Part shown: positions 1 through 15,853 of the stretch, in pieces
How the letters are laid out: each line of letters starts with the position of its first letter
Numbering within the stretch: position 1 is the stretch's first letter
From: Naegleria gruberi
Taxonomy: Eukaryota
NCBI GenBank assembly: GCA_000004985.1
Contig: GG738881.1
Reading direction: 5' to 3' (one strand)
DNA: 64,000 nt
Notes under the pieces: model-generated
What the model was told of the DNA's origin: nothing
The model's database searches: none
What the model saw: only the letters and a program-made list of their open reading frames with translations
Made by a program: the position numbers and the translations under genes

Positions 1-1084
1 GACAACCAAGTTTGTCGCCCAATTGTAAACCTTCTTTGGTTTCAACTTCTCTTTCTTCATCAGGAATATCACACTTATTTCCAATAATAACAACAGGTAG
101 AATTGTTTGAGAAGTTGAAGATGAAACGCTACTTGTTGTGCTAGATGTTGTTGTTGGAGATGATGCTATAGATGATGAAATTGAACCGGTTTCTCTTCCT
201 GGTGAGCTAGGGCTCACAATAGTTGTTGGATTATTTGAGGTATCTGTAACATTCAATGTTGGAGTGGAAACATTACTACTATTTGTGCTGGTTGTAGTTA
301 CAGTATTGGTAGAAGAAGAAGATGAAGAAGCATTATTTTCAGTAGCCTTTCTCTTCTTCTTGTAGGCATTTTGCCAAGAGTTCTTATTCATTTCAGCCAA
401 GATTGGAGAAGTAGGATCGTGAAGTTGCAAAATTAATTTCATATGAGTTTTCACCTTTTCAAGAGAGAATTTGTTCTTTACATCAAACATTAACAGGTAA
501 CCATCAATGTGTGATTTCAACTCTTCCTTCTCTTCAGTTGTAAATCCTGTATCAAAGAGAGTAATCATGGACAACTCGTATTTACAGTTTTGGAACTCTA
601 CAGAGAAAATATCTAATGTGTTTAAACACATTCAAATAACAAGTAAATATGTGATGCAAATTAAATAATATTATAGATATTCAAAATAAAACAATTCATC
701 ATCAAAGAGTAAGGGAATGACCATTCAATAAGCAATGCCATCACATCAGCACCAAGTTCATCACATCAAACACATGAACCAGTCGCAAACAAGGTAGTGA
801 AAGGAGACATGATCCAATGAAGCGTTTTCAATGAAATTTTTTTGATAAAAGGGCGCCAAAATTATTCATTAGGTTTGATTATCAGTAGGAATTGAATCAT
901 AGCAGAAATTGAATATGAATGATTGATTGTTTAGATAATGATATATACTATTATGAAATTAATAAATTTAACGTACACTTATTGGCTCCAGGTCTAACCT
1001 GAACAATTTTACCATCATATAATTCAGTGGCTGCTTTTGCAAATTCTTGTTTCCCGACAGAAGCTCCTCCCCTATGATGATGAT
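1..1084 (-). CDS. Divergent Ras/Rab-like small GTPase, partial (3' end runs past window start). At least two exons: about 977-1084 and 1-612. Start codon not resolved.
   Basis: Minus-strand translation gives a P-loop-like HHHRGGASVGKQEFAKAATELYDGKIVQVRPGANK, then an AT-rich intron of about 364 nt (GTACGT donor, cattag acceptor). The next exon reads YIFSVEFQNCKYELSMITLFDTGFTTEEKEEL...VVIIGNKCDIPDEEREVETKEG: switch-II-like DTGxxxE and a G4 NKxD box (GNKCD). A Ser/Thr-rich insert (~90 aa) lies between switch II and G4. No in-frame ATG upstream before a stop, so a further 5' exon is likely. Confidence 0.5.
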
Positions 1085-1876
1085 TAAAGAGTTTTTTGTG
1101 ATTATGAATGTTTTTTAATTATATTGTCATCATATTCGATATAATAATGGAAAATGGAATTTGAAGAAATCATTAAAGATAATAGCAGTGATGATTTGGT
1201 TTAATTATGAAAGAATTCATACATACATTACACAAATACTATATTTAACCGTTTTCATGATGATGATATCGTGATTTTGATGTTATTGCTGATGAAAGAA
1301 CACGATACGAAAGGTTTCTCAGAGAAGAAAATGAAGCGATTCGTATTGAATTTTTTTTTCGAATGTGTCAACCTTCAAGAGCAATTTTGGATCAGTTTAG
1401 ATTTATTTTGGCTTTATGAATCGTTGCATAGTATGAACAATTATCTCTCCTAAAGAACTATCGAATAAAAATTTACTTTCAGATGCTATTATTTCATATC
1501 CATTGAACAATACAGTATTAATATTGAAATTTTGAAATTCCTTGCTCACAGTTTAATTGTTGTAACGACATTTAAATTGCATGTTGTATGCAACATTCGA
1601 ATATGAAGGAAAGAAAAAATACTTTTTATGGTTCATTACCCTTCTTTCTGAAATATGACATTAGGACTTTGTAACAACAAATAACATACATTTGATGTTT
1701 CGATAAAGTAGGATGCCTATTGACTTATGTGTAATATGGTGGATAAATTTCATTATTTACATTCTTATTTCCATAACTATTCGAATCAGCATGTTCTTCA
1801 ACCTAATTACAACAATATTGCTAGTATTGTATCTCATTGTAAAAGATGGTTAATAATGAAGTAAAACTTAAAAAAA

Positions 1877-6369: not shown

Positions 6370-7855
6370 TTACCTTTTAATAGCACGTCTGTTCAACGTT
6401 TTTAATAGAGGGAAGGCATCCTTAAACTTGGATTCAGGGACACTGTCTGGTGAGAAGTCAATATCAGTCAGATTTCTGATATTTCCATTCGCAAAGTTTA
6501 GCATTGAACTTTCAGAAAGTGAATTTCTACACAATTTGAGCACTTTCAATTTGACAAGATTACTATCGCTCAAGAGTTTCAAACCAGCAGAGCCAATGTC
6601 ATTTCCACAAAGATTAAGCAATGTCAAATTTTGTAAATATGGAGAGTTGACTATATCTTTAACACTCACACTAGTCAACAGAGATTTGTGAGGAATACAA
6701 GTTATAGATCTCAAAGTGGAAGAATATTCAGAAAGGCATATACGAAATATTCCCAAATCTGAAATATCATTCTCTGAAATATCCAAAATGGCAATCTTTG
6801 TAAGCAAGCCGTTGAATAATTTTTCCAAATGGTCATTATTAATGCCACACTTGGTCAGATTGAGTGATGTTAAATTGTGCATTGGTTTTAAGGCATCAAC
6901 AGAGACAGAATTTTTTGACATGTCCAATACTGTTAAATTGGGGAAAATAGTTTCAGCAAACTGTTTCCAAGGTTTTTCATGTTGAACTCTTCCACATTCC
7001 ATTTTCAAAGTTTGCAATTTCGTCAATTTACAAATATCTGGAACAGCTTCTGAAATGTGAAATCCAGAAATGTTCAAAAAAGTTAGATTAGGCATATTCC
7101 ACTTCGTAAAGGGTTTCAATTCTTCCCAACTCTCATACCTTCCAACATTCAACGATTCCAATGATGAAATCGATCCAACAAGATTCAAACCATACCAAGT
7201 GAGCTGGCAATTCGATAAATCAACAATTTTCAAATCAGGTTTACGAGTTGCTAGAAAGTTAAACCACCAATCTGTACTTGGTCCTTGAAACCCACATCCT
7301 ATCAATTTTAAAACTCTCAACTTGTCGAATTGAGATATACGCCTATAACTGGTCCAATCATTACCAGCCCTATTCAAAGAAAATGTTTCAAAATCTTTGA
7401 ATTTGTAAAGAGAATCAAAGTCAGAACAATTCAAATCACAACACAAAGCTAACCATTCCTGAGCATGATTCTCAAATAATTTCTTCAATTTGAACTCACA
7501 ATTCTTCATAATGACCTTCTCAACCTTTCGGAAAGCTCCCAACCTAGCACATTCATATATAACATCCTCGCTATTATCTTTAAAATCAAGTGTTGCTACC
7601 TTTACATTAGCCAGTACCCACTGATGAAAATTCCTGCAAGCCATTCCGATCGTTCGCCTTAATACCTTACTCCATAAATCTAAAGATGTGATGATGAAAA
7701 ATCTCTGCCGGCAATATGGCCACTAATTCAGCACCTTCATCTTGTTGGTTGCTTTCTACTAACGGTGAAGATACAGTAGTGATATGTTCGGACATTTTTT
7801 TGGATTTGATTTTTGAAGATTCATTGTAATAGTCAATTTTAATTGATTTCAACAT
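6370..7855 (-). CDS. F-box / leucine-rich-repeat (RNI-like) protein; probably 2 exons (7855-7671 and 7633-6370) joined across a putative 37-nt intron.
   Basis: The large ORF 6370-7644 is LRR-rich (LKVLKLCRNSLSESS, LTLLNLCGNDIGSAG, LTSLNLTKCGIN). The upstream ORF 7667-7855 (ATG at 7855) ends ...LVAILPAEIFHHHIFRFME, an F-box start. GTAAGG...CTTGCAG 37-nt intron would fuse the frames (phase 2). The join is inference. Confidence 0.55.
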
Positions 7856-7861
7856 GTTGTT

Positions 7862-8926
7862 TTATTGATGAAAAACAAAGATGAGCAATACAATAAGAAA
7901 CCACCATGCAGAAGAGGAAGGTCTTAAATTATTAGAGCTATTAACTCGTCCACCACTGCTTGATGGTTTTCTGCTTGAACTTGTTGGAGTAATCAATGTT
8001 GATTGACCAGTTGGTGCTGAGCTAGTGCTTGGTTTAGTAGTGCTTTGCAATGGTTTAGTGCTTGACAATGGTTTAGTAGTGCTTGGCAATGGAGTGACAG
8101 CATTACAATTACTCTCAAAAGCTCCAATATCTGGAGCAATGTCATTATTAGCAAGTGCTACACCCTTACCAATCAATGTAATGTTTTGATTGCAACGAAG
8201 TTTAAAATCCAAGTTAGTTGCATTATTAAAGTAGTATGTCAAATTAGATGCAACTATTTCATTAATAATATGAGAACCAAGATTAGCATAGGACCAATCA
8301 ATAAATTGCCAATTATACATTTTGGCTTTTTCTTGCATAATGTAATTGTAATCAATATCCCAATAACGAGCCAGTAAGTATAATGGAGAATTGGTTTGGA
8401 AGGTTGGTTTCTGGAGTGGAGTATTGATGAAGGCATTGTTTTTCATCTCGACAGTTCTTGGATAATAAGTATTTGTGGATATGGAAATAATGGATGACAA
8501 TGCTAATTCCTCAAGAATAGCTCTATTCAAGCCAATGACTTCATTGAGAGCTCGTTTGTCAGAGAATGAGGCAGGATTAATGACAGATCCGTCACTGTTC
8601 AAAACTCCCTTAGTTGAAAGAGCTACCCAATATGGATAAGCTGCTCCTCCTGTAACATTCAAAGAACCAACTACATCATTCTTGTGTGTGTACATGAAAG
8701 AGGTGTCATTGACAATAGTGTTGAGGAAAGTTACAATCTCTGTTTGTAAAGATGAGCCAATTTGTCCATAATTATCCAGAGCTTGAATCTTTGAAACCAA
8801 AGTTGGATTCTTATTCCAAATCAAAGTTTGTGCCATTGCATTGTTCATGGTTTTGACTTGTGTGAACAAATTGCTAAAGCCAGTCGTACCAATTGAGAGA
8901 ATAAGAGGAGTGTCATCCTTCAACAA
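7862..8926 (-). CDS. C-terminal part of the same beta-helix gene (-1 frame): unknown globular domain, then a Ser/Thr/Pro-rich stalk and a C-terminal hydrophobic tail (GPI-anchor or TM-like).
   Basis: Overlaps the upstream ORF by 14 nt in another frame. Ends ...STTKPLSSTKPLQSTTKPSTSSAPTGQSTLITPTSSSRKPSSSGGRVNSSNNLRPSSSAWWFLIVLLIFVFHQ* (mucin-like stalk plus hydrophobic C-terminus). The track's M is TTG. Either a frameshift (sequencing error or pseudogene) or an unusually short intron joins the two. Confidence 0.5.
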   Translation of the reverse strand: MLKDDTPLILSIGTTGFSNLFTQVKTMNNAMAQTLIWNKNPTLVSKIQALDNYGQIGSSLQTEIVTFLNTIVNDTSFMYTHKNDVVGSLNVTGGAAYPYWVALSTKGVLNSDGSVINPASFSDKRALNEVIGLNRAILEELALSSIISISTNTYYPRTVEMKNNAFINTPLQKPTFQTNSPLYLLARYWDIDYNYIMQEKAKMYNWQFIDWSYANLGSHIINEIVASNLTYYFNNATNLDFKLRCNQNITLIGKGVALANNDIAPDIGAFESNCNAVTPLPSTTKPLSSTKPLQSTTKPSTSSAPTGQSTLITPTSSSRKPSSSGGRVNSSNNLRPSSSAWWFLIVLLIFVFHQ

Positions 8927-10751
8927 GGAATCTCAACCAAACATTGTAGAATACATTGTTGTACATTCTAATTTCAGAACTCCAGTTAATTCCCATTGGA
9001 CCACCTATAATGACATTGCCAGTAAAGGTAATCTTACCACAATTTTCATTCCACATATTTTGAGGATTGTGAGTTAGGGCGCCATCATAGGTTCCGTCGT
9101 TGATTAAGTAATTATCCTTAATGAGAATGTTGTGAACCTTTGAAAATTGAATATTGTCTGCATGTTGAAGTTCACTTGAATGAGGACCAATTCTATTCGA
9201 AATGATTTGAATATTAAAAGTATCGAATAGAGCATTGGTGTTTCCTGCCCAAATACCATTATTCAAATTGTGATGAATGTAGGTATTTTTAACAGTACAA
9301 TCACGACTTCCCCTTGCAAAAAAGTCAATTCCATTGTTCCAGTTATAGGCATATTCACCTCCGTCAATGATAATATTATCACCCATTTGGATACCAAGTC
9401 CATCAAAGAAATTTTCATTTGAAGTAATATTCAAGTATGAGGTCTTACTGCAATAATTACAAAAAACACCAGTTCCTTCAAATCTTCTGACAAACAAACT
9501 GTCAAAAACGAGATATTCTGTAAATTGCATCCAAAGTCCATATTTGATGACAGAAACTTCAATAGATTTAGGAAGAGTATCAGCAGAAACATAAACTTGA
9601 TTATTATCGAGAGCATACTGTCCAGGTTTTGAAATCAAACCAACGTGATTTCCCAGGGCATACTTATCATTCTTAATGAAGGAAAATCCTGAATATGCTG
9701 TACCATCAAGAGGAGAAATAGCTACATTAGTGAAACCAGCAGTATTGGTTTTACTGTCATATGATAAAACAGTTCTGTAAAAGGTAACTTTGGCCAAGGT
9801 ACCGGCTGGATTGTTTCCATCCCCAATGAAATGATACAGTTTAGCACCAACCCAGTAACCATCTGGAACACTTGTACCATCGGCTTTCTTTCTGAATCTA
9901 TCGTCAAGTTGCAAATAAACTATATTAGAAACTGTGGTAACATTAGTAGCAGCAGTAATGGTGATATAATTAGTTGACAAGAATGGATCAAGATCTGAAT
10001 ATGGCAAAGGTATCATGGCAGGTACCAATTTCTTGGTCTCAGAATAAAGAAAAAGAGGAGTTCTTTGAATAGTAGTTGTGTAAATATTAACTGGAGCGGA
10101 TGCAAACAATTTAACCTTACTCATGTCAACTGGAATAGATCCATCAATAATCACATTCTTTGAATCAGTTCCCTTGAAAGTAATTGGATGTCCAGGGAGT
10201 GCTGAATATTGAATCTTTAAGGTTTCTCTATAAATTCCAGGTCCAATTATTAAGGTATCGTCTGGCTGTAACATGTATTGAGCTCTTGAAATGGTTTTCC
10301 AAGGAGATGATTTAGTTTTACCATTATTAGAATCTGATCCAGTACTTTGATCAACGTAGAATGTTTGAGGAGATGCAGAGTGGAGCAATTTACCTTTCCA
10401 GACCTTGACTCCCAAGATCTTGTATCTGCTAGTAGTTGGACTGTCAGTTGTCTTATCATAGAATCCAATCTTTCCATTAACTGAATAGAATACCTTCATT
10501 GCATCAGCATCAGAATCAGAAATATTGATTAGATAGTCGCCACTGGCAATACCAACTTGTCCAATGGAAATAGAAATGGAATTACTCGATTTCTTAATAT
10601 AGAACTTGTGATCGGTATAAACTGAATTTCCAGCACCACCAACCAAAAGGGAAGAACTATGAATTAAGGTTCTAACCCCATTCAATACTCTTGTAATAGT
10701 TTGAAATTGGTCTGGTTTGTACAAAGCTGGAATTGACGAAAAGGTGATCAA
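8913..10751 (-). CDS. Right-handed parallel beta-helix (pectin-lyase-fold, DUF1565-like) protein, N-terminal part; frame-shifted relative to the downstream ORF.
   Basis: FYVDQSTGSDSNNGKTKSSPWKTISRAQYMLQPDDTLIIGPGIY is the typical DUF1565 / beta-helix start. Later PbH1-like repeats follow (NNGIWAGNTNALFDTFNIQIISNRIG, HNILIKDNYLINDG, NNVFYNV). The track's M at 10751 is TTG; no in-frame ATG lies upstream before a stop, so the 5' end is unresolved. Confidence 0.6.
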   Translation of the reverse strand: MITFSSIPALYKPDQFQTITRVLNGVRTLIHSSSLLVGGAGNSVYTDHKFYIKKSSNSISISIGQVGIASGDYLINISDSDADAMKVFYSVNGKIGFYDKTTDSPTTSRYKILGVKVWKGKLLHSASPQTFYVDQSTGSDSNNGKTKSSPWKTISRAQYMLQPDDTLIIGPGIYRETLKIQYSALPGHPITFKGTDSKNVIIDGSIPVDMSKVKLFASAPVNIYTTTIQRTPLFLYSETKKLVPAMIPLPYSDLDPFLSTNYITITAATNVTTVSNIVYLQLDDRFRKKADGTSVPDGYWVGAKLYHFIGDGNNPAGTLAKVTFYRTVLSYDSKTNTAGFTNVAISPLDGTAYSGFSFIKNDKYALGNHVGLISKPGQYALDNNQVYVSADTLPKSIEVSVIKYGLWMQFTEYLVFDSLFVRRFEGTGVFCNYCSKTSYLNITSNENFFDGLGIQMGDNIIIDGGEYAYNWNNGIDFFARGSRDCTVKNTYIHHNLNNGIWAGNTNALFDTFNIQIISNRIGPHSSELQHADNIQFSKVHNILIKDNYLINDGTYDGALTHNPQNMWNENCGKITFTGNVIIGGPMGINWSSEIRMYNNVFYNVWLRFLVEG

Positions 10752-10834
10752 TATGTTTACAATTTATGTAATTTACATGTTTTTAGTTCTAGAACTGGTT
10801 GTATACACAATGAAATAATGAAAAATCAAAAAAT

Positions 10835-13800
10835 CTATTTATTTTCGCAAGGTTCAATTGCTGGCTTTTGCTTCTTTTTTAACTTTTGCTCATGTTTGTA
10901 TTCGATGAGTAATTTTTGATAATCGTGAGGGAAGAATCCAAATCTAATAAATTTGATAAGCAGATCAGGAAGTAAGGCAACCACACTTAGCAACATTGTC
11001 ACGAGAATGGCCTTTACACTCATGAAGGTATGATAATACACAAAGTGGAAAGTTCCCTTTCCGAAAAATACTGGAATTGGAGTATAAATTACCACAAATA
11101 CAAAATAGCTCAAGTAACTACCCCAAATCGATAAAATGATTGGAAGGCTCCACGATTTGACTGACAGAGCAAATTTGAAAGTAATAATAGTTACTGTTGT
11201 TGTGAGAACAACTGTTCCAAAGTGGAAAACATCTGATGGTCCATTCTCCAAAATATCTTCATATCCATAACAAATTAAAACTCCAAAGAAAACAATCAAA
11301 GAATGATAGGTGGCATCCAATGTCCAGAAAAGTAAGCTTCTGATATTGAATAAATTACCATGAGTTCCACTCTTTTTCAAAGTAGAGTAAATTTCTGGAT
11401 GTTGTAAAATAACTTCCTCTGGTAAATCCTTCTCAAATACTCCTGAAACAATTGGTTGGAAGAAACAGTAGATAGTATTGAACATTGTAAGAAGCCATGA
11501 TTCAAAAAATATTGTGCATGTAAATCCTGTATAAATACAGTAAAGTATCTGAGGAACCACAATCATGACATTCTTGTAAAAGTTGAAGAGTAAAAAGTCA
11601 GCATTTCTAACACAGCAATATCTTCCATGAAGAGCAATCAATCTGACTAAATTCTTAAATCTAGGGAGAGCATAGTCAGCAGAACGAGAGGCCTGAGAAC
11701 CTTCTTTTCCTTTGATACCTACACCTACAGTTGCTGCTTGAATCATTGCCACGTCATTTACACCGTCTCCAACAGCAAGAGCTTTCTTTTTCAATTTGGA
11801 TTCAATGAGCTTGACTATTCTTGCCTTTTGGAGTGGCTTTAATCTGGAACAAACTGCACAACTAATATGTTGAACAATCTTTAGGAATTGTTTTTCATAC
11901 TTTTCCAGAGCAAAATCCAATGATTTAGAATCAATCACTAATCCATACTCAAAGTGTTTGTTCTTGTGACGCTCAAGAAATTCTAAAGCAACTTTCATCT
12001 TCTTTTTGACATGTTTAGTATTGCAAGAGTCTCGTATTCTTATTTCTATTGTTTCATCTTTGTGTAAGATATTTGTAGAGTAGGCAACATTGATGGCAGT
12101 CTCTGTCTTGTCTCCTGTTAAGACCCAAATTTGAAAGCCGGCTTTGGATAAATAGGTAATAGTCTCTACTGCATTTTCTTGAAGCTTGTCCTCAATGGCT
12201 GTACATCCAATTAATTGTAAATCAATTTCCATATCAGCAGCACTGTGAATTAAAAGCTTTTCTCTATTCTTTGTTGAGAGGGTTGCCTTTGTATATGCTT
12301 CAATCCATACTTGAAATTCTTCTTCTGAAATTTCCTTTCTAGCACATACAAGAGTTCTCAAACCCTTAATTGAAAATGTTTCAAGAGCAAGTTTCAAGTC
12401 GGTGACATAATGCTTTCTAGCTCTACATCTTTTGATCATGACGCTATCAGCCCCTTTTACATAACAAATATATCTTCCTTCTGGGCTTTTAACAATTACA
12501 CACATTCTCTTTCTGTCTGATGTAAATTCAATGGTTGCAACAATGTCATAAAACTTCTTTTCTCCCATCTCATCAATTAGAACACCTGCGTTTGTTCTTT
12601 GTAACAACACAAATCCATTATTTCTGGCTGCTTCTAATAGAGCTATTTCATCTGAAGAAGGTCCATCATAAACAATACGCTCTGGGTTCTTTGGATCACG
12701 TTCAGGAATGACATTGTTATTCAATGCTAGACATAAGAGGAACTCTCTCAAAAGGTAGGCATGGTAACCAGCTGTATCAGATACAGGTGGCTCTTCCAAG
12801 CTTGGTTTGTGTTCAGTCATGTAATTCTTCATTAAACCTGGATTACGTATTTCCGAGTAGTACAACCCACCAACCCATGAATCAGAGTATTTCATTTCAT
12901 TTTGAGTGAGAGTACCTGTCTTGTCTGAAAATATCACATCCAAATTAGAAAGAGCTTGATTCATATTAGATGATTTGACTTCTGCTTTAAAGTCTCCATG
13001 CCACATTTCCTTGTCACTCTCTATCATTTTGGATTGGAAAGTTTTAATAATTTCCAAACCAACAACCAATGACATTGGAATCATAAGATTTAACAAAATG
13101 AAACAAGTAACCCATGTGGACATGACAGATGTAAAGGAAGCAGGTGCGGAACTAACTGGTCTTAAATAGAATGCTTTGATTTGATAATTATCTTGGAATA
13201 ATCCATAAAATGCAGCCACAATAGCGCAAATAATTTGCTGTAAGATTAAAAGGAATACTAAAATTTTGTTCAATGTAATGTCCAAGTCGTTTCTCTTTTG
13301 TTTGTTCTCTTTCAAGTTCTTTAAAATCTTGGTGTGATTACCCACATAAATAGCAATACCATAAATATGTTTTGTGTTCTTCAGCACACATCCTCTGAGA
13401 AGTAGATTATCCATAGTCATAGCTTCCTTTTGAGTTAATTTTTGATCCCCTACTTTTGCTTTCAGTTTGATGTTGCCTTCAAAAGTATCCAAGTTGCTGT
13501 TAGGAAGTTCAACCTTCAGTTGACCATCCAAATCACTCAAACTTTTGTGAATGGTATGTTCTGGAATATCGTGCAAGAATTTTCCAGCTTTAAGAGATCG
13601 TCTCGTTTTCAGATTTGTTTCGCCGTCCAGATTCGCCGTCTCTACATAGCACATATCATCCTCTCTTGAGGAGTGTATACACAACAAATCGGAAGGGAAT
13701 GTTTCTTCCTTGCTTACAAGTACAATTTCTCCTATTTCTACATCCTTGACTCTAATTTCAACCACCTGACCACCTCTAATTACTCTACACTTTTCATTGT

Positions 13801-15853
13801 TAGCTTTTCTGTCTTGTCTATAACGTTGAAGATCTTCAATGGCGTCCTTAAACATTTGAATCATTACAATTACAATAAGTGGAATAATGGAGGTAGCTGG
13901 TGATACTGGAGAAATATCAGGAAGTAATACTGCAATAACTGATATTAAAAAATAAATATTGGTAACCTTTTTGAATTGTTCAAAAAGGTTTTTTGGAATA
14001 AAGGTTAACAAAGTATACTTTGTTGTTCTGACATAGTTTGTAGGCCATGACTTTCTATTATTTTTGTTTTCTTCTCGGTTGTTTACATAAATTCTCTCAA
14101 ATTGCTTTTTAGAATCTTCAGTTTTGGTGGTAGTTTCAGTTATTGTTGGAGGTGCTGTGACAACAGATTCGTCCTCGTCATCACTAAATCCCTCTTCTTC
14201 TGCTTTTCGCAATTGTTTAACAATATTCTTATTAACAATATCTTTTACAGGTTTCATGCTCAAATAATCATTGACATTGTACGAGTCGACTTGTCTTGGC
14301 CTTTCTTTGGAATTTTCAATCATGGCCATATCAGTTTTCTTAACCACAAAATCATCCTCAGCTTCTTGAGCATCTTCAACATAGAGTGATTCCTCTCTGA
14401 TGTGATTAACATATCTTGGTTTTCGTTTTGGAGGCTCCATTACAGATGGTAAATCGATACTTGAACCTGGTAAGCTCATTGGTGAGGAATAAACAACTGG
14501 TTGTGGAACAATTCCAGTTTCAAAAACTGAATCTGTAGTATTGATTTTCAAAGGACTTCGTTTTTCAACAAGTGGAGACTCGTGGAGTTCCAAAGTCTTC
14601 TTGGAATTGCCTTTTCTAAATGTCTTTTTCTTTGCAGCTTTTAATTCTCTATCTTCCTCATCACTACTGCTAAATCCAAGTTCCTTGGATGTCATGTGAA
14701 GAGGTGTCTTTGACTCCTTTCCATTGCTATCCAAATTAGAAACTCCTTCAATTTCTGTGACATGAATATTCTTATTGTCAGAAGAAACGATAATTTTGCT
14801 TTGTTTGAGACGACCAATTTGAGAAGTAACTTCCACATCTTCATCTTTAGAAAAGTAACGAGAAGGAATCCTCTTCCATCTTTCGGAAAGTAGTGAAGGA
14901 TCATTTCCATAAATTAATGCCATATCATCCTGAGTCTTGCTGTTGTAAATAGATCCAACTCTACTGTTTCTTCTATTATAGGATTTTCTCCAAGCTTCAA
15001 GCAATTGATCATCATCAAACTTGAAATTTGATTGACCACTTCTCGATGTTGTAGTGGTTGTTGTTGTGGTAAAGGTAGAAGTTTCGTCGGTATTTGTATC
15101 TACTCTGAATACAGGAGGATAAATAGGAATGTGATTGTTGGTGGTATTGTTATTTGTACTGTTTGTGTTAATAATAGTAGAAGGCTGTTTAGTTGATGTT
15201 TTCTCAACAGAAGATACCAAATTTAAGTTTGGTGAAGCAATCTTTTCTTCATCTGTAATAATTCTACTAATTCTGTGCAGTTGACTATTGTCTAAACTCA
15301 CTCTGTTTAATTGTTTCGATGGAGTCAATGAAGCAGAGGGTGGATTCGCACTTGATTGCTTTCTTGGAGGAGTTGTTGATAAATTGTCTTGTCGTGGTGG
15401 AAACTGGTACGTTTCCTCTTTATATGCAAATGATGAAGAAGGAATTGAGACAACAGTGTCGTTAAATGTTATTCTGGGTGATGGATTGATAATGTGATTG
15501 GGTATTGTTGTGGAAGTAGGATTCTCAGTAGCAACTGTTATTGATGCTGCAGAGTTGTTGGTAGTAGGTACTGATGAAAGTAAATTATTATCATGATGAA
15601 TATTAGAAAAGGATGTAGTTGTTGTGGAAGGTTTGGACTGTTGATGTAATATTACATCTTGGTCCTCATCTTCATCTACTAAATTTACATTGGTTCCAAC
15701 AATAATTGATGAAGTATTATGATTATATTGTTGATTATTTACATGTTCTCCATCCATTGATTCAACTTCGATATGAATTACATCCACATCCTCAGCCACA
15801 ATATTAGAATCCTCTTGATGATGATTATTAGTATCACCACTCGTATTTAGCAT
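10835..15853 (-). CDS. P4-type ATPase (phospholipid-transporting flippase, Drs2/ATP8-like), 1672 aa, single exon, with a ~700-aa low-complexity N-terminal extension.
   Basis: ATG at 15853. P-type signatures: FSDKTGTLTQNEM (DKTGT phosphorylation site), TGDKTETAINVAYS, GDGVNDVAMIQAATVGVGIKGKEG (P4 subtype), and 10 predicted TM segments. N-terminus is rich in S/T/N runs. Confidence 0.85.
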   Translation of the reverse strand: MLNTSGDTNNHHQEDSNIVAEDVDVIHIEVESMDGEHVNNQQYNHNTSSIIVGTNVNLVDEDEDQDVILHQQSKPSTTTTSFSNIHHDNNLLSSVPTTNNSAASITVATENPTSTTIPNHIINPSPRITFNDTVVSIPSSSFAYKEETYQFPPRQDNLSTTPPRKQSSANPPSASLTPSKQLNRVSLDNSQLHRISRIITDEEKIASPNLNLVSSVEKTSTKQPSTIINTNSTNNNTTNNHIPIYPPVFRVDTNTDETSTFTTTTTTTTSRSGQSNFKFDDDQLLEAWRKSYNRRNSRVGSIYNSKTQDDMALIYGNDPSLLSERWKRIPSRYFSKDEDVEVTSQIGRLKQSKIIVSSDNKNIHVTEIEGVSNLDSNGKESKTPLHMTSKELGFSSSDEEDRELKAAKKKTFRKGNSKKTLELHESPLVEKRSPLKINTTDSVFETGIVPQPVVYSSPMSLPGSSIDLPSVMEPPKRKPRYVNHIREESLYVEDAQEAEDDFVVKKTDMAMIENSKERPRQVDSYNVNDYLSMKPVKDIVNKNIVKQLRKAEEEGFSDDEDESVVTAPPTITETTTKTEDSKKQFERIYVNNREENKNNRKSWPTNYVRTTKYTLLTFIPKNLFEQFKKVTNIYFLISVIAVLLPDISPVSPATSIIPLIVIVMIQMFKDAIEDLQRYRQDRKANNEKCRVIRGGQVVEIRVKDVEIGEIVLVSKEETFPSDLLCIHSSREDDMCYVETANLDGETNLKTRRSLKAGKFLHDIPEHTIHKSLSDLDGQLKVELPNSNLDTFEGNIKLKAKVGDQKLTQKEAMTMDNLLLRGCVLKNTKHIYGIAIYVGNHTKILKNLKENKQKRNDLDITLNKILVFLLILQQIICAIVAAFYGLFQDNYQIKAFYLRPVSSAPASFTSVMSTWVTCFILLNLMIPMSLVVGLEIIKTFQSKMIESDKEMWHGDFKAEVKSSNMNQALSNLDVIFSDKTGTLTQNEMKYSDSWVGGLYYSEIRNPGLMKNYMTEHKPSLEEPPVSDTAGYHAYLLREFLLCLALNNNVIPERDPKNPERIVYDGPSSDEIALLEAARNNGFVLLQRTNAGVLIDEMGEKKFYDIVATIEFTSDRKRMCVIVKSPEGRYICYVKGADSVMIKRCRARKHYVTDLKLALETFSIKGLRTLVCARKEISEEEFQVWIEAYTKATLSTKNREKLLIHSAADMEIDLQLIGCTAIEDKLQENAVETITYLSKAGFQIWVLTGDKTETAINVAYSTNILHKDETIEIRIRDSCNTKHVKKKMKVALEFLERHKNKHFEYGLVIDSKSLDFALEKYEKQFLKIVQHISCAVCSRLKPLQKARIVKLIESKLKKKALAVGDGVNDVAMIQAATVGVGIKGKEGSQASRSADYALPRFKNLVRLIALHGRYCCVRNADFLLFNFYKNVMIVVPQILYCIYTGFTCTIFFESWLLTMFNTIYCFFQPIVSGVFEKDLPEEVILQHPEIYSTLKKSGTHGNLFNIRSLLFWTLDATYHSLIVFFGVLICYGYEDILENGPSDVFHFGTVVLTTTVTIITFKFALSVKSWSLPIILSIWGSYLSYFVFVVIYTPIPVFFGKGTFHFVYYHTFMSVKAILVTMLLSVVALLPDLLIKFIRFGFFPHDYQKLLIEYKHEQKLKKKQKPAIEPCENK

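What the first reader, a model, noticed from the sequence alone, without database searches (positions are those of the whole stretch)
7862..10751. Bacterial-type right-handed beta-helix (DUF1565-like) protein in a eukaryotic locus, fused to a mucin-like stalk and hydrophobic tail, with an internal frameshift
The N-terminal motif FYVDQSTGSDSNNGKTKSSPWKTISRAQYMLQPDDTLIIGPGIY and the downstream PbH1 repeats are typical of bacterial pectin-lyase-fold surface enzymes. Here the domain is followed by a Ser/Thr-rich stalk and a C-terminal hydrophobic segment (GPI-anchor-like), and sits between intron-containing eukaryotic genes. That makes it a candidate horizontally acquired carbohydrate-active cell-surface protein. 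The two halves overlap at 8913-8926 in different frames. The only GT...AG that would repair the frame is 25 nt (GTTTGGTTGAGATTCCTTGTTGAAG), shorter than any other intron here, so a frameshift error or pseudogenisation is more likely. No ATG or signal peptide is found at the 5' end, so the 5' end is unresolved.
Basis: partly seen in the sequence, partly recalled or inferred. Interest (0 to 1): 0.5.

Follow-up and report, generated by a model that had tools for sequence, protein, structure and literature searches.

The report
Broken copy of amoeba beta-helix gene
This is a damaged copy, missing its front end and carrying a one-base frameshift, of a cell-surface sugar-polymer-acting enzyme gene family that Naegleria and Willaertia amoeboflagellates appear to have taken from bacteria long ago; it is real but fairly ordinary.

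The parts
10752..10834 (-). Spacer between the flippase stop codon (10837-10835) and the start of the open frame. It holds no usable start codon.
   Evidence: the only ATG is ATGTAA; no homology to family N-termini.
10701..10751 (-). The first 17 codons of ORF1, which are open by chance and are not homologous to the family. An acceptor-like ...TTCCAG|CTTTG lies at about 10725.
   Evidence: homology to all relatives begins at residue 18-19 (nt 10700). Sequence read.
10368..10700 (-). Remnant (residues 18-128) of the N-terminal beta-sandwich domain. Only its C-terminal half is present.
   Evidence: relatives have about 220-240 further residues upstream (signal peptide, Ig-like domain, first half of this domain); pLDDT 37-62 here, consistent with an incomplete domain.
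10497..10499 (-). Internal ATG (Met85), used as the start of the existing GenBank model EFC42221.1 / XP_002674965.1 / NAEGRDRAFT_69936. That model has 528 aa and ends at the frame-break stop at 8913.
   Evidence: P0019 is 100% identical to ORF1 residues 85-612.
8928..10367 (-). N-terminal cap (FYVDQSTGSD... at 10361-10230) and right-handed parallel beta-helix core, with conserved turns HHNxNNGIW, H(P/A)DNIQ, QNMW and YNN.
8922..8933 (-). Frameshift site. Removing any one base here restores a single 962-codon ORF. Removing one of 8924-8928 gives LRFLLKDDT, which has the same spacing as the paralogues.
8918..8942 (-). The 25-nt GT...AG stretch proposed as an intron. It is rejected because it is coding sequence (VWLRFLLK).
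   Evidence: these residues align with SWMRYSFK / SGFRVSPK / SGFRFALK / SGLRFDAH. Arg607 is invariant in the 10-sequence alignment. The donor GTTTGG is poor. PMC8296547 used a 30-bp minimum intron for Naegleria.
8471..8926 (-). Linker and all-helical insert (reconstructed residues 609-760). It is shared with the heterolobosean and PVC-bacterial relatives and absent from more distant bacterial relatives.
   Evidence: helices 622-750. (relatives that align through residue about 880). (P0001 lacks about 150 residues here).
8114..8470 (-). C-terminal beta-helix rungs and cap, ending in the conserved APDIGAFE motif.
   Evidence: P873 D874 I875 G876 E879 invariant..
7919..8098 (-). Ser/Thr/Pro-rich stalk (60% S+T+P) with three STTKPL-like repeats encoded by a 21-nt tandem repeat at 8030-8092.
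   Evidence: Similar stalks occur in EFC47700 and W. magna KAL9642573.
7862..7909 (-). C-terminal hydrophobic tail AWWFLIVLLIFVF-HQ and stop codon. It looks like a GPI-attachment signal: it is short for a membrane span, sits at the very C-terminus, and is preceded by small residues SSS.
   Evidence: hydropathy. Paralogue EFC47700 ends in a comparable tail. No GPI predictor was available.

Best explanation
The locus is a non-functional relic of one gene from a heterolobosean gene family.

**The family.** Intact members (for example N. gruberi EFC47700 and four Willaertia magna genes) have this architecture:
- signal peptide
- Ig-like domain
- beta-sandwich domain
- right-handed parallel beta-helix
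- helical insert
- beta-helix cap ending in APDIGAFE
- in several members, a Ser/Thr/Pro-rich stalk, and in N. gruberi EFC47700 also a short hydrophobic tail at the very C-terminus

This layout fits a secreted, heavily O-glycosylated enzyme tethered to the cell surface, probably through a GPI anchor. Its beta-helix groove would bind and cleave or modify an extracellular polysaccharide.

**Origin (inferred).** The whole architecture is shared with proteins of Planctomycetota and Verrucomicrobiota that sit in exopolysaccharide biosynthesis clusters. The heterolobosean sequences form one clade. The family was therefore most likely acquired once from such a bacterium, before Naegleria and Willaertia diverged. 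It then duplicated, took on host codon usage, gained an intron in W. magna, and exchanged bacterial C-terminal modules for a eukaryotic stalk and anchor.

**This copy (shown).** It has lost its first ~220 codons, including the signal peptide. It now abuts the 3' end of the flippase gene and has no start codon. It also carries a single-base insertion at about 8924-8928 that splits it into two ORFs.

**Timing (inferred).** No other stop codon has accumulated in 962 codons, and conserved positions are retained about as well as in other members. The inactivation is therefore recent, possibly linked to a rearrangement next to the flippase gene.

**Annotation.** The GenBank model EFC42221.1 (528 aa, from Met85 to the frameshift stop) is an artefact of these lesions.
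For: **Identity of the window**
- One search gives exact matches to N. gruberi proteins on a 379,849-bp scaffold.

**One gene, split by a frameshift**
- tblastn of six relatives gives abutting HSPs in frames -3 and -1. For EFC47700, residues 238-747 map to 10700..8928 and residues 749-1051 map to 8977..8012.
- blastp gives single HSPs across the junction.
- The junction alignment shows VWLRFLLK matching a conserved block.
- Deleting one base restores a 962-codon ORF.

**5' truncation**
- All full-length relatives start matching at their residue ~155-240.
- Nothing in the 64-kb window matches their N-termini.
- The 83-nt spacer has no usable ATG.

**Family and phylogeny**
- names two N. gruberi paralogues and four W. 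magna homologues.
- A neighbour-joining tree (479 columns, 200 bootstraps) gives a 100% heterolobosean clade. The closest sequences outside it are a bacterial or metagenomic group in which one member is a named Phycisphaerae MAG protein.
- The genome scan found full-length relatives only in a Phycisphaerae MAG and a Verrucomicrobia MAG.

**Genuinely eukaryotic**
- GC3 and RSCU are indistinguishable from neighbouring genes.
- W. magna KAL9642573 has a 39-nt GTAAGT...AACAG intron and is flanked by Arf/Ras and C2-domain genes.

**Fold and function**
- AlphaFold model.
- Foldseek: GH141 at E 2.6e-15.
- The three close bacterial relatives inspected lie among Wzx-type flippases, glycosyltransferases, sugar aminotransferase and acetyltransferase genes; two of the three also have EpsI and one has Poly_export.

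**Recent inactivation**
- This copy retains 80% of strongly conserved columns, against 79-94% for other members.
Against: - No reads or traces could be examined. The single-base insertion could be a sequencing error, and the junction with the flippase gene could be a misassembly.
- Two separate lesions in an otherwise pristine 2.9-kb frame is somewhat suspicious.
- Expression data were not available.
- The tree is a distance tree on 30 sequences. Its rooting is uncertain, and support for monophyly of the bacterial sister group is weak (54.5%).
- Presence or absence of the family in N. fowleri, N. lovaniensis and other eukaryotes could only be checked at the syntenic locus and indirectly through a 50%-clustered library.
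- No catalytic residues could be assigned. The window copy itself fails the Pfam Beta_helix model.
Confidence: 0.68

Rival explanations
1. The gene is intact and functional in the organism. The frameshift is a base-calling error and the missing 5' part reflects a local misassembly, or an undetected upstream exon, in the 2010 Sanger draft.
For: Apart from the two lesions the frame is clean for 962 codons. Conserved positions are retained at 80%, within the family range. A single deleted base repairs the frame. An acceptor-like TTCCAG sits just where homology begins.
Against: The flippase gene ends 83 nt upstream on the same strand, is complete, and is conserved to its C-terminus. No fragment of the missing ~220 residues exists anywhere in the 64-kb window. 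There are no Ns or repeats at the junction. An exon beyond a 5-kb nested gene would be exceptional in a genome with a 203-bp mean intron length (PMC8296547).
Confidence: 0.17
2. One reading: a bacterial beta-helix gene was recently and individually inserted at this locus by horizontal transfer, then fused to a eukaryotic stalk and tail.
For: The closest non-heterolobosean relatives are bacterial. N. fowleri and N. lovaniensis lack it downstream of the orthologous flippase.
Against: The nearest relatives are eukaryotic paralogues and homologues (50% to N. gruberi EFC36467, 33-40% to EFC47700 and W. magna, versus 28-35% to bacteria), in a 100% clade. Codon usage is fully host-like. The stalk-plus-tail design is shared with paralogue EFC47700.
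Confidence: 0.03
3. The 25-nt GT...AG (8942-8918) is a real ultra-short intron, and splicing yields an in-frame mRNA.
For: Removing it restores the frame.
Against: It would delete eight residues that align with a conserved block including an invariant Arg. The donor GTTTGG is poor. The short heterolobosean introns seen here are 37 nt (inferred) and 39 nt with GTAAG donors. A 30-bp minimum was used for Naegleria (PMC8296547).
Confidence: 0.02
4. The family is an old eukaryotic invention, vertically inherited and lost in most lineages, and the bacterial copies derive from a eukaryote-to-bacterium transfer.
For: In the distance tree the heterolobosean clade is sister to, not nested inside, the closest bacterial group.
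Against: Thousands of relatives were found (3285 at E<=0.001), in several distinct groups. Those that could be named or placed in context were bacterial, plus one archaeal MAG. Named eukaryotic hits are confined to two heterolobosean genera. The more distant out-groups, which lack the helical insert, include the one member whose context was inspected, and that context is bacterial. The bacterial genes sit in coherent EPS operons.
Confidence: 0.08

Closest known systems
Heterolobosean paralogues and homologues: N. gruberi EFC47700.1 (D2V5S1) and EFC36467.1 (D2W373); Willaertia magna KAL9642573.1, KAL9654989.1, KAL9658098.1, KAL9647625.1. All are annotated only as predicted or hypothetical proteins.
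   Same: They share collinear homology over residues 18-~900 at 33-50% identity: beta-sandwich, beta-helix, helical insert and APDIGAFE cap. EFC47700 also has the Ser/Thr/Pro stalk and a hydrophobic C-terminal tail.
   Different: They have the signal peptide, the Ig-like domain and a complete beta-sandwich. The window copy lacks these and has a frameshift. The EFC36467 model lacks ~210 residues of the beta-helix and is fused to unrelated sequence.
PVC-superphylum bacterial 'right-handed parallel beta-helix repeat-containing proteins', for example Phycisphaerae MAG MBE0535468.1 and a Verrucomicrobia MAG locus, plus metagenomic relatives in EPS clusters
   Same: They share the same multi-domain order including the helical insert, at 28-35% identity over ~860 residues.
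   Different: They carry bacterial signal peptides and C-terminal modules (Laminin_G_3, He_PIG, PEP-CTERM-like tail) instead of a mucin-like stalk and GPI-like tail. They are encoded in polysaccharide biosynthesis operons.
Pectate lyase Pel9A, polysaccharide lyase family 9 (PDB 1ru4; Pfam PF22842)
   Different: Pel9A is a 400-residue single domain. There is no sequence-profile hit to 1ru4 even at E<=10. The Ca-binding and catalytic residues of PL9 were not checked. The family has extra domains and a helical insert.
GH141 glycoside hydrolases (BT1002 alpha-L-fucosidase, PDB 5mqp; endo-xylanase Xyn141E; endo-fucanases)
   Different: There is no sequence-level relationship. Conservation of catalytic D523/D564 (PMC12786026) could not be assessed.
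GH120 beta-xylosidase XylC (3vst) and GH136 lacto-N-biosidases
   Same: They share a significant profile match to the N-terminal cap, the region carrying the FYVD...GDTI...G.YRE motif (E 1.7e-17 and 1.5e-7).
   Different: The match covers only ~90-140 residues of the cap. It does not cover the catalytic region.

Membership tests
Pfam DUF1565 (PF07602) | Whole-protein score at or above the gathering threshold (20.3 bits) across the 257-position model | tested here: not met
   18.1 bits, with only profile positions 2-43 matched; 4 of 10 family members match at E<=0.01.
Right-handed parallel beta-helix / pectin-lyase fold | Stack of three-stranded beta-helix rungs, recognised by structure comparison | tested here: met
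Pfam Beta_helix (PF13229, PbH1 repeats) | Significant hmmscan match | tested here: inconclusive
   8 of 10 family members match (best 2e-30), but the window copy itself does not; the precomputed hit for the annotated protein is PF22842 instead.
Polysaccharide lyase family 9 (Pel9A) | Sequence membership, plus the Ca2+-binding acidic cluster and catalytic base of Pel9A | tested here: inconclusive
   It is the fold-level best hit with PF22842 hits. There is no PDB sequence-profile hit at E<=10. Active-site residues were not alignable with the tools.
GH141 | Sequence similarity to GH141 and the catalytic Asp pair (D523/D564 of BT1002) | tested here: not met
   the family profile does not find 5mqp even at E<=10, so the sequence-similarity criterion is not met and only fold similarity remains. 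The Asp pair could not be checked because no residue-level structural alignment was available.
AlgE-type mannuronan C5-epimerase | Catalytic YG(F/I)DPH(D/E) motif | tested here: not met
   the profile aligns to AlgE4/6 residues 134-240, but the family consensus opposite YGFDPHE is 'keGiscsk'. The similarity is limited to generic repeats.
GPI-anchored or secreted surface glycoprotein | N-terminal signal peptide | tested here: not met
   this copy has no ATG and no hydrophobic N-terminal segment. Paralogues and W. magna homologues do have hydrophobic N-termini.
GPI-anchored or secreted surface glycoprotein | C-terminal signal: small omega-region residues, a spacer, and a hydrophobic stretch at the very C-terminus | tested here: inconclusive
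   ...RPSSS-AWWFLIVLLIFVF-HQ fits by inspection. No GPI predictor was available, and a tail-anchor or short membrane span is not excluded.
Unprocessed pseudogene | Disabling lesions relative to intact paralogues (frameshift; loss of start codon and 5' coding region) | tested here: met
Unprocessed pseudogene | Lesions confirmed in the organism (reads), with no functional transcript | not testable with these tools
   No read or RNA-seq data were available. N. gruberi is not in the contig index.
Horizontally acquired gene of bacterial origin | Physically integrated in a eukaryotic chromosome with host-like features | tested here: met
   380-kb scaffold, eukaryotic neighbours, host-like codon usage; a W. 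magna member carries an intron.
Horizontally acquired gene of bacterial origin | Eukaryotic sequences form a restricted clade whose relatives are otherwise prokaryotic | tested here: inconclusive
   Searches are consistent with this. However, the tree is a distance tree with uncertain root, and most database hits are unnamed. Other eukaryote genomes could not be searched directly.

The most novel reading that the evidence does not exclude
A complete multi-domain beta-helix enzyme from an exopolysaccharide gene cluster of a Planctomycetota- or Verrucomicrobiota-like bacterium was captured by the common ancestor of Naegleria and Willaertia. It was re-addressed to the amoeba surface through a mucin-like stalk and GPI anchor, and expanded to four copies in W. 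magna. Its proposed role is cutting bacterial capsule or biofilm polysaccharide during grazing. In Naegleria the family is now decaying: this truncated copy, a paralogue model lacking part of the beta-helix, and no copy at the syntenic site in N. fowleri or N. lovaniensis.
Probability: 0.3. Interest if true: 0.55.

Novelty: new member of a known kind. Interest (0 to 1): 0.3.

Why it matters
**For annotation.**
- EFC42221.1 / NAEGRDRAFT_69936 is a truncated artefact. It should be flagged as a probable pseudogene fragment of a ~1,100-residue gene.
- The paralogue model EFC36467.1 also looks chimeric.

**For biology.**
- The family itself, not this copy, is the interesting object. It is an uncharacterised, lineage-restricted set of surface beta-helix proteins in bacterivorous amoeboflagellates.
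- Its closest relatives sit in bacterial exopolysaccharide operons. That makes it a candidate example of a predator borrowing a prey-type polysaccharide enzyme.
- It also gives a concrete case of how a transferred gene is adapted to a eukaryote: intron gain, host codon usage, and replacement of bacterial anchoring modules by a stalk and a GPI-like signal.

None of this touches a long-standing open question. Bacterial-origin carbohydrate-active enzymes are well known in phagotrophic protists.

Tried and rejected
- **Word-index protein search.** Searching with the joined 962-aa sequence and with ORF1 missed the paralogues. In one search it also missed the identical annotated protein, probably because the low-complexity tail flooded the candidate list. 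The exhaustive phmmer search was needed.
- **N. gruberi DNA.** Contig look-ups for EFC42222, EFC36467 and EFC42221 failed because the assembly is not indexed. Paralogue DNA, dN/dS and paralogue intron positions could not be examined.
- **Metagenome scan.** A scan for close relatives, hoping for an intact orthologue in environmental Naegleria, found nothing.
- **AlphaFold-database fold search.** It was unavailable, so distribution in other eukaryotes could not be checked that way.
- **Synteny.** N. fowleri and N. lovaniensis have no homologue within 10 kb downstream of the orthologous flippase. Their Sgf11-like neighbour is absent from the window.
- **Rejected: 25-nt intron**.
- **Rejected: AlgE-type epimerase chemistry**.
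- **Rejected: GH141 membership by sequence**.
- **Rejected: NCBIfam membership.** PelN, LIC10774 and LnbX match only at the ~50-residue cap, far below their cut-offs.
- **Rejected: hidden upstream coding in another frame.** SNYYKSIEW in a second frame overlaps the ITRVLNG codons and is coincidental.
- **Programmed +1 ribosomal frameshifting** was considered, but nothing supports it. There is no known signal, and the copy lacks a start codon anyway.
- **Literature.** No paper mentions the locus identifiers, or Naegleria together with parallel beta-helix and horizontal transfer.
Full report
**1. Source and observation**

Exact look-ups place the window on a 379,849-bp scaffold of Naegleria gruberi NEG-M. 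The 1672-aa ORF at 10838-15853(-) is the phospholipid flippase EFC42222.1, and four other ORFs are exact N. gruberi proteins. The organism is therefore a heterolobosean (Discoba), not an amoebozoan.

The two minus-strand ORFs exist as described: 8913..10751 (612 aa) and 7862..8926 (354 aa). They overlap by 14 nt in frames offset by +1. Other points check out as follows:
- The quoted motif is at ORF1 residues 131-174.
- The 25-nt GT...AG lies at 8942-8918.
- The C-terminus has a 60-residue stretch that is 60% Ser/Thr/Pro, partly encoded by a 21-nt tandem repeat at 8030-8092. It ends in AWWFLIVLLIFVF-HQ.
- Only 83 nt separate the flippase stop from the open frame, and the only ATG there is ATGTAA.
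- Spurious ORFs nearby are 40-111 aa, so these ORFs are far beyond chance.
- Pfam gives only a sub-threshold DUF1565 hit to the first 43 profile positions (18.1 vs 20.3 bits).

**2. The locus is already annotated, in truncated form**

The exhaustive phmmer search returned P0019, 528 aa and 100% identical to ORF1 residues 85-612. This is EFC42221.1 / XP_002674965.1 / NAEGRDRAFT_69936 / D2VLX8, "predicted protein". The model starts at an internal Met and stops at the frame break. Whether ORF2 has its own model could not be determined. No paper mentions these identifiers.

**3. One gene, broken by a single-base insertion, not an intron**

- Relatives align through the break. tblastn of six relatives gives abutting HSPs in the two frames; for EFC47700, residues 238-747 map to 10700..8928 and residues 749-1051 map to 8977..8012.
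- The eight residues inside the proposed intron (VWLRFLLK) align without gaps to SWMRYSFK, SGFRVSPK, SGFRFALK and SGLRFDAH. The spliced version leaves a gap there. Arg607 is invariant in the 10-sequence alignment.
- Deleting any one base at 8922-8933 yields a single 962-codon ORF. Deleting one of 8924-8928 yields LRFLLKDDT, with the paralogues' spacing.
- The putative donor GTTTGG is poor. The short introns seen in this lineage are 37 nt (neighbouring F-box/LRR gene, inferred by eye) and 39 nt (W. magna), both with GTAAG donors. A Naegleria transcriptome study used 30 bp as the minimum intron length (PMC8296547).

**4. The 5' end is missing, not merely unresolved**

Every full-length relative begins to match ORF1 residue 17-19 at its own residue ~155-240. 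The alignment shows what lies upstream in those relatives: a signal peptide, an Ig-like domain and the first half of a beta-sandwich domain.

tblastn of those N-termini finds nothing anywhere in the 64-kb window. Homology starts at nt 10700, which is 135 nt after the flippase stop. The preceding 17 codons are open by chance. In the AlphaFold model the retained half-domain (residues 1-125) has pLDDT 37-62, while the beta-helix is mostly 80-92.

**5. Family and phylogeny**

Named relatives:
- N. gruberi EFC36467.1: 50-52% identity. The model lacks ~210 residues of the helix and is fused to unrelated sequence.
- N. gruberi EFC47700.1: 34-40% identity, with a hydrophobic, signal-peptide-like N-terminus, a stalk and a hydrophobic tail.
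- Four Willaertia magna proteins: 30-38% identity.
- Next come metagenomic proteins in bacterial-type gene neighbourhoods and a Phycisphaerae MAG protein: 28-35% identity.

A neighbour-joining tree of the helix core (479 columns, 200 bootstraps) gives a 100% clade of the window copy, EFC47700 and the four W. magna sequences. The closest outside sequences belong to the group containing the Phycisphaerae protein.

That group and the heteroloboseans alone share the ~150-residue helical insert and the full domain order. More distant bacterial relatives such as P0001 lack the insert. A scan of 185,579 prokaryotic species genomes found full-length relatives only in a Phycisphaerae MAG and a Verrucomicrobia MAG.

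The eukaryotic genes are genuinely eukaryotic:
- Codon usage and GC3 of both ORFs match their neighbours.
- W. magna KAL9642573 lies between Arf/Ras and C2-domain genes.
- That gene is interrupted by a 39-nt GTAAGT...AACAG intron inside the conserved HHNQDNG|LWIGN turn.

The most economical history is one old bacterium-to-heterolobosean transfer followed by duplication. Recent acquisition at this locus is excluded.

**6. Synteny**

The flippase orthologues of N. fowleri and N. lovaniensis are followed by an Sgf11-like zinc-finger gene on the other strand and then an F-box-like gene. No beta-helix homologue lies within 10 kb.

The zinc-finger gene is absent from the window. The region 3' of the flippase has therefore been rearranged in N. 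gruberi. Such a rearrangement could have cut the beta-helix gene; this is an inference.

**7. Fold and likely activity of the family**

- The model (pTM 0.68) has a long beta-helix (residues 130-610), a helical insert (620-750), further rungs and a disordered tail.
- Foldseek ranks GH141 first (E 2.6e-15).
- At sequence-profile level only the N-cap matches GH120 and GH136, and generic repeats match AlgE4/6. The AlgE catalytic motif is not conserved, and neither 5mqp nor 1ru4 is found even at E<=10.
- NCBIfam hits cover the cap only and are far below cut-off.
- Three of three close bacterial relatives inspected lie among polysaccharide-biosynthesis genes: Wzx-type flippases, glycosyltransferases, a DegT aminotransferase and hexapeptide acetyltransferases, with EpsI in two of the three and Poly_export in one.
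- Conserved polar residues on successive turns (HHNxNNGIW, HPDNIQ, QNMW, YNN) suggest a substrate groove.

I therefore infer a polysaccharide-cleaving or -modifying enzyme displayed on the cell surface. Hydrolase versus lyase chemistry is unresolved.

**8. State of this copy**

It retains 80% of strongly conserved columns, against 79-94% for other members. It has no stop other than the one created by the frameshift. Inactivation is therefore recent, or the lesions are artefacts of the draft assembly. No read data were available to decide between these.

My weighting is about 0.68 for a true relic and 0.17 for an artefact masking an intact gene. Small weights go to the remaining rivals.

**9. 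Verdict**

- beta-helix fold
- bacterial ancestry
- stalk and tail
- frameshift rather than intron

It is wrong or incomplete on the points that made the finding look special. The gene is not a lone recent transfer, it belongs to a heterolobosean family, and this copy is a truncated, probably dead member that is already mis-annotated in GenBank.

Novelty is that of a new member of a known kind. Interest is modest (0.3). The family as a whole deserves more attention than this locus.

Noticed in passing
window 6370-7855 (-): The neighbouring gene appears to be an F-box-like first exon (7855 to about 7661) joined to an LRR exon by a very short 37-nt intron (GTAAGG...TTGCAG, about 7660-7624). This was read by eye and not checked against the annotation.
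   Followed up: partly
N. gruberi paralogues EFC36467.1 (P0020) and EFC47700.1 (P0024); no DNA available: Both other N. gruberi family models look imperfect. EFC36467 lacks ~210 residues of the beta-helix core and is fused to ~1000 unrelated residues, which looks like a chimeric model. EFC47700 lacks three stretches present in W. magna and the bacterial relatives (alignment A2, columns ~583-633, 808-826, 874-895). These are either gene-model artefacts or family-wide decay in Naegleria.
   Followed up: partly
L005 7143-7181 (Willaertia magna JBEGDK010000160.1): A 39-nt spliceosomal intron (GTAAGT...AACAG) splits the conserved HHNQDNG|LWIGN beta-helix turn of KAL9642573. The window copy is uninterrupted at this position.
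   Followed up: yes
window 10835 downwards, compared with L002 and L003 15290-19500: Synteny breaks immediately 3' of the flippase. N. fowleri and N. lovaniensis share an Sgf11-like zinc-finger gene and then an F-box-like gene. N. gruberi has the beta-helix relic instead and lacks the zinc-finger gene in this window. A Ras-like match (window 344-1085 to L003 20686-21486) shows that the wider neighbourhood is related.
   Followed up: partly
window 8030-8092: A 21-nt tandem repeat (3.1 copies, 80% matches) encodes the STTKPL-type repeats of the stalk.
   Followed up: yes
L004, L006, L007 (bacterial metagenome contigs): The closest bacterial relatives recur next to Wzx-type flippases, EpsI (exosortase-associated), Poly_export, sugar aminotransferase and acetyltransferase genes. 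This makes them an uncharacterised beta-helix component of exopolysaccharide loci in PVC-type bacteria.
   Followed up: partly
whole window: ARAGORN found no tRNA genes in the 64 kb. GC is uniform at 31-37% throughout, with no compositional island at the beta-helix locus.
   Followed up: yes
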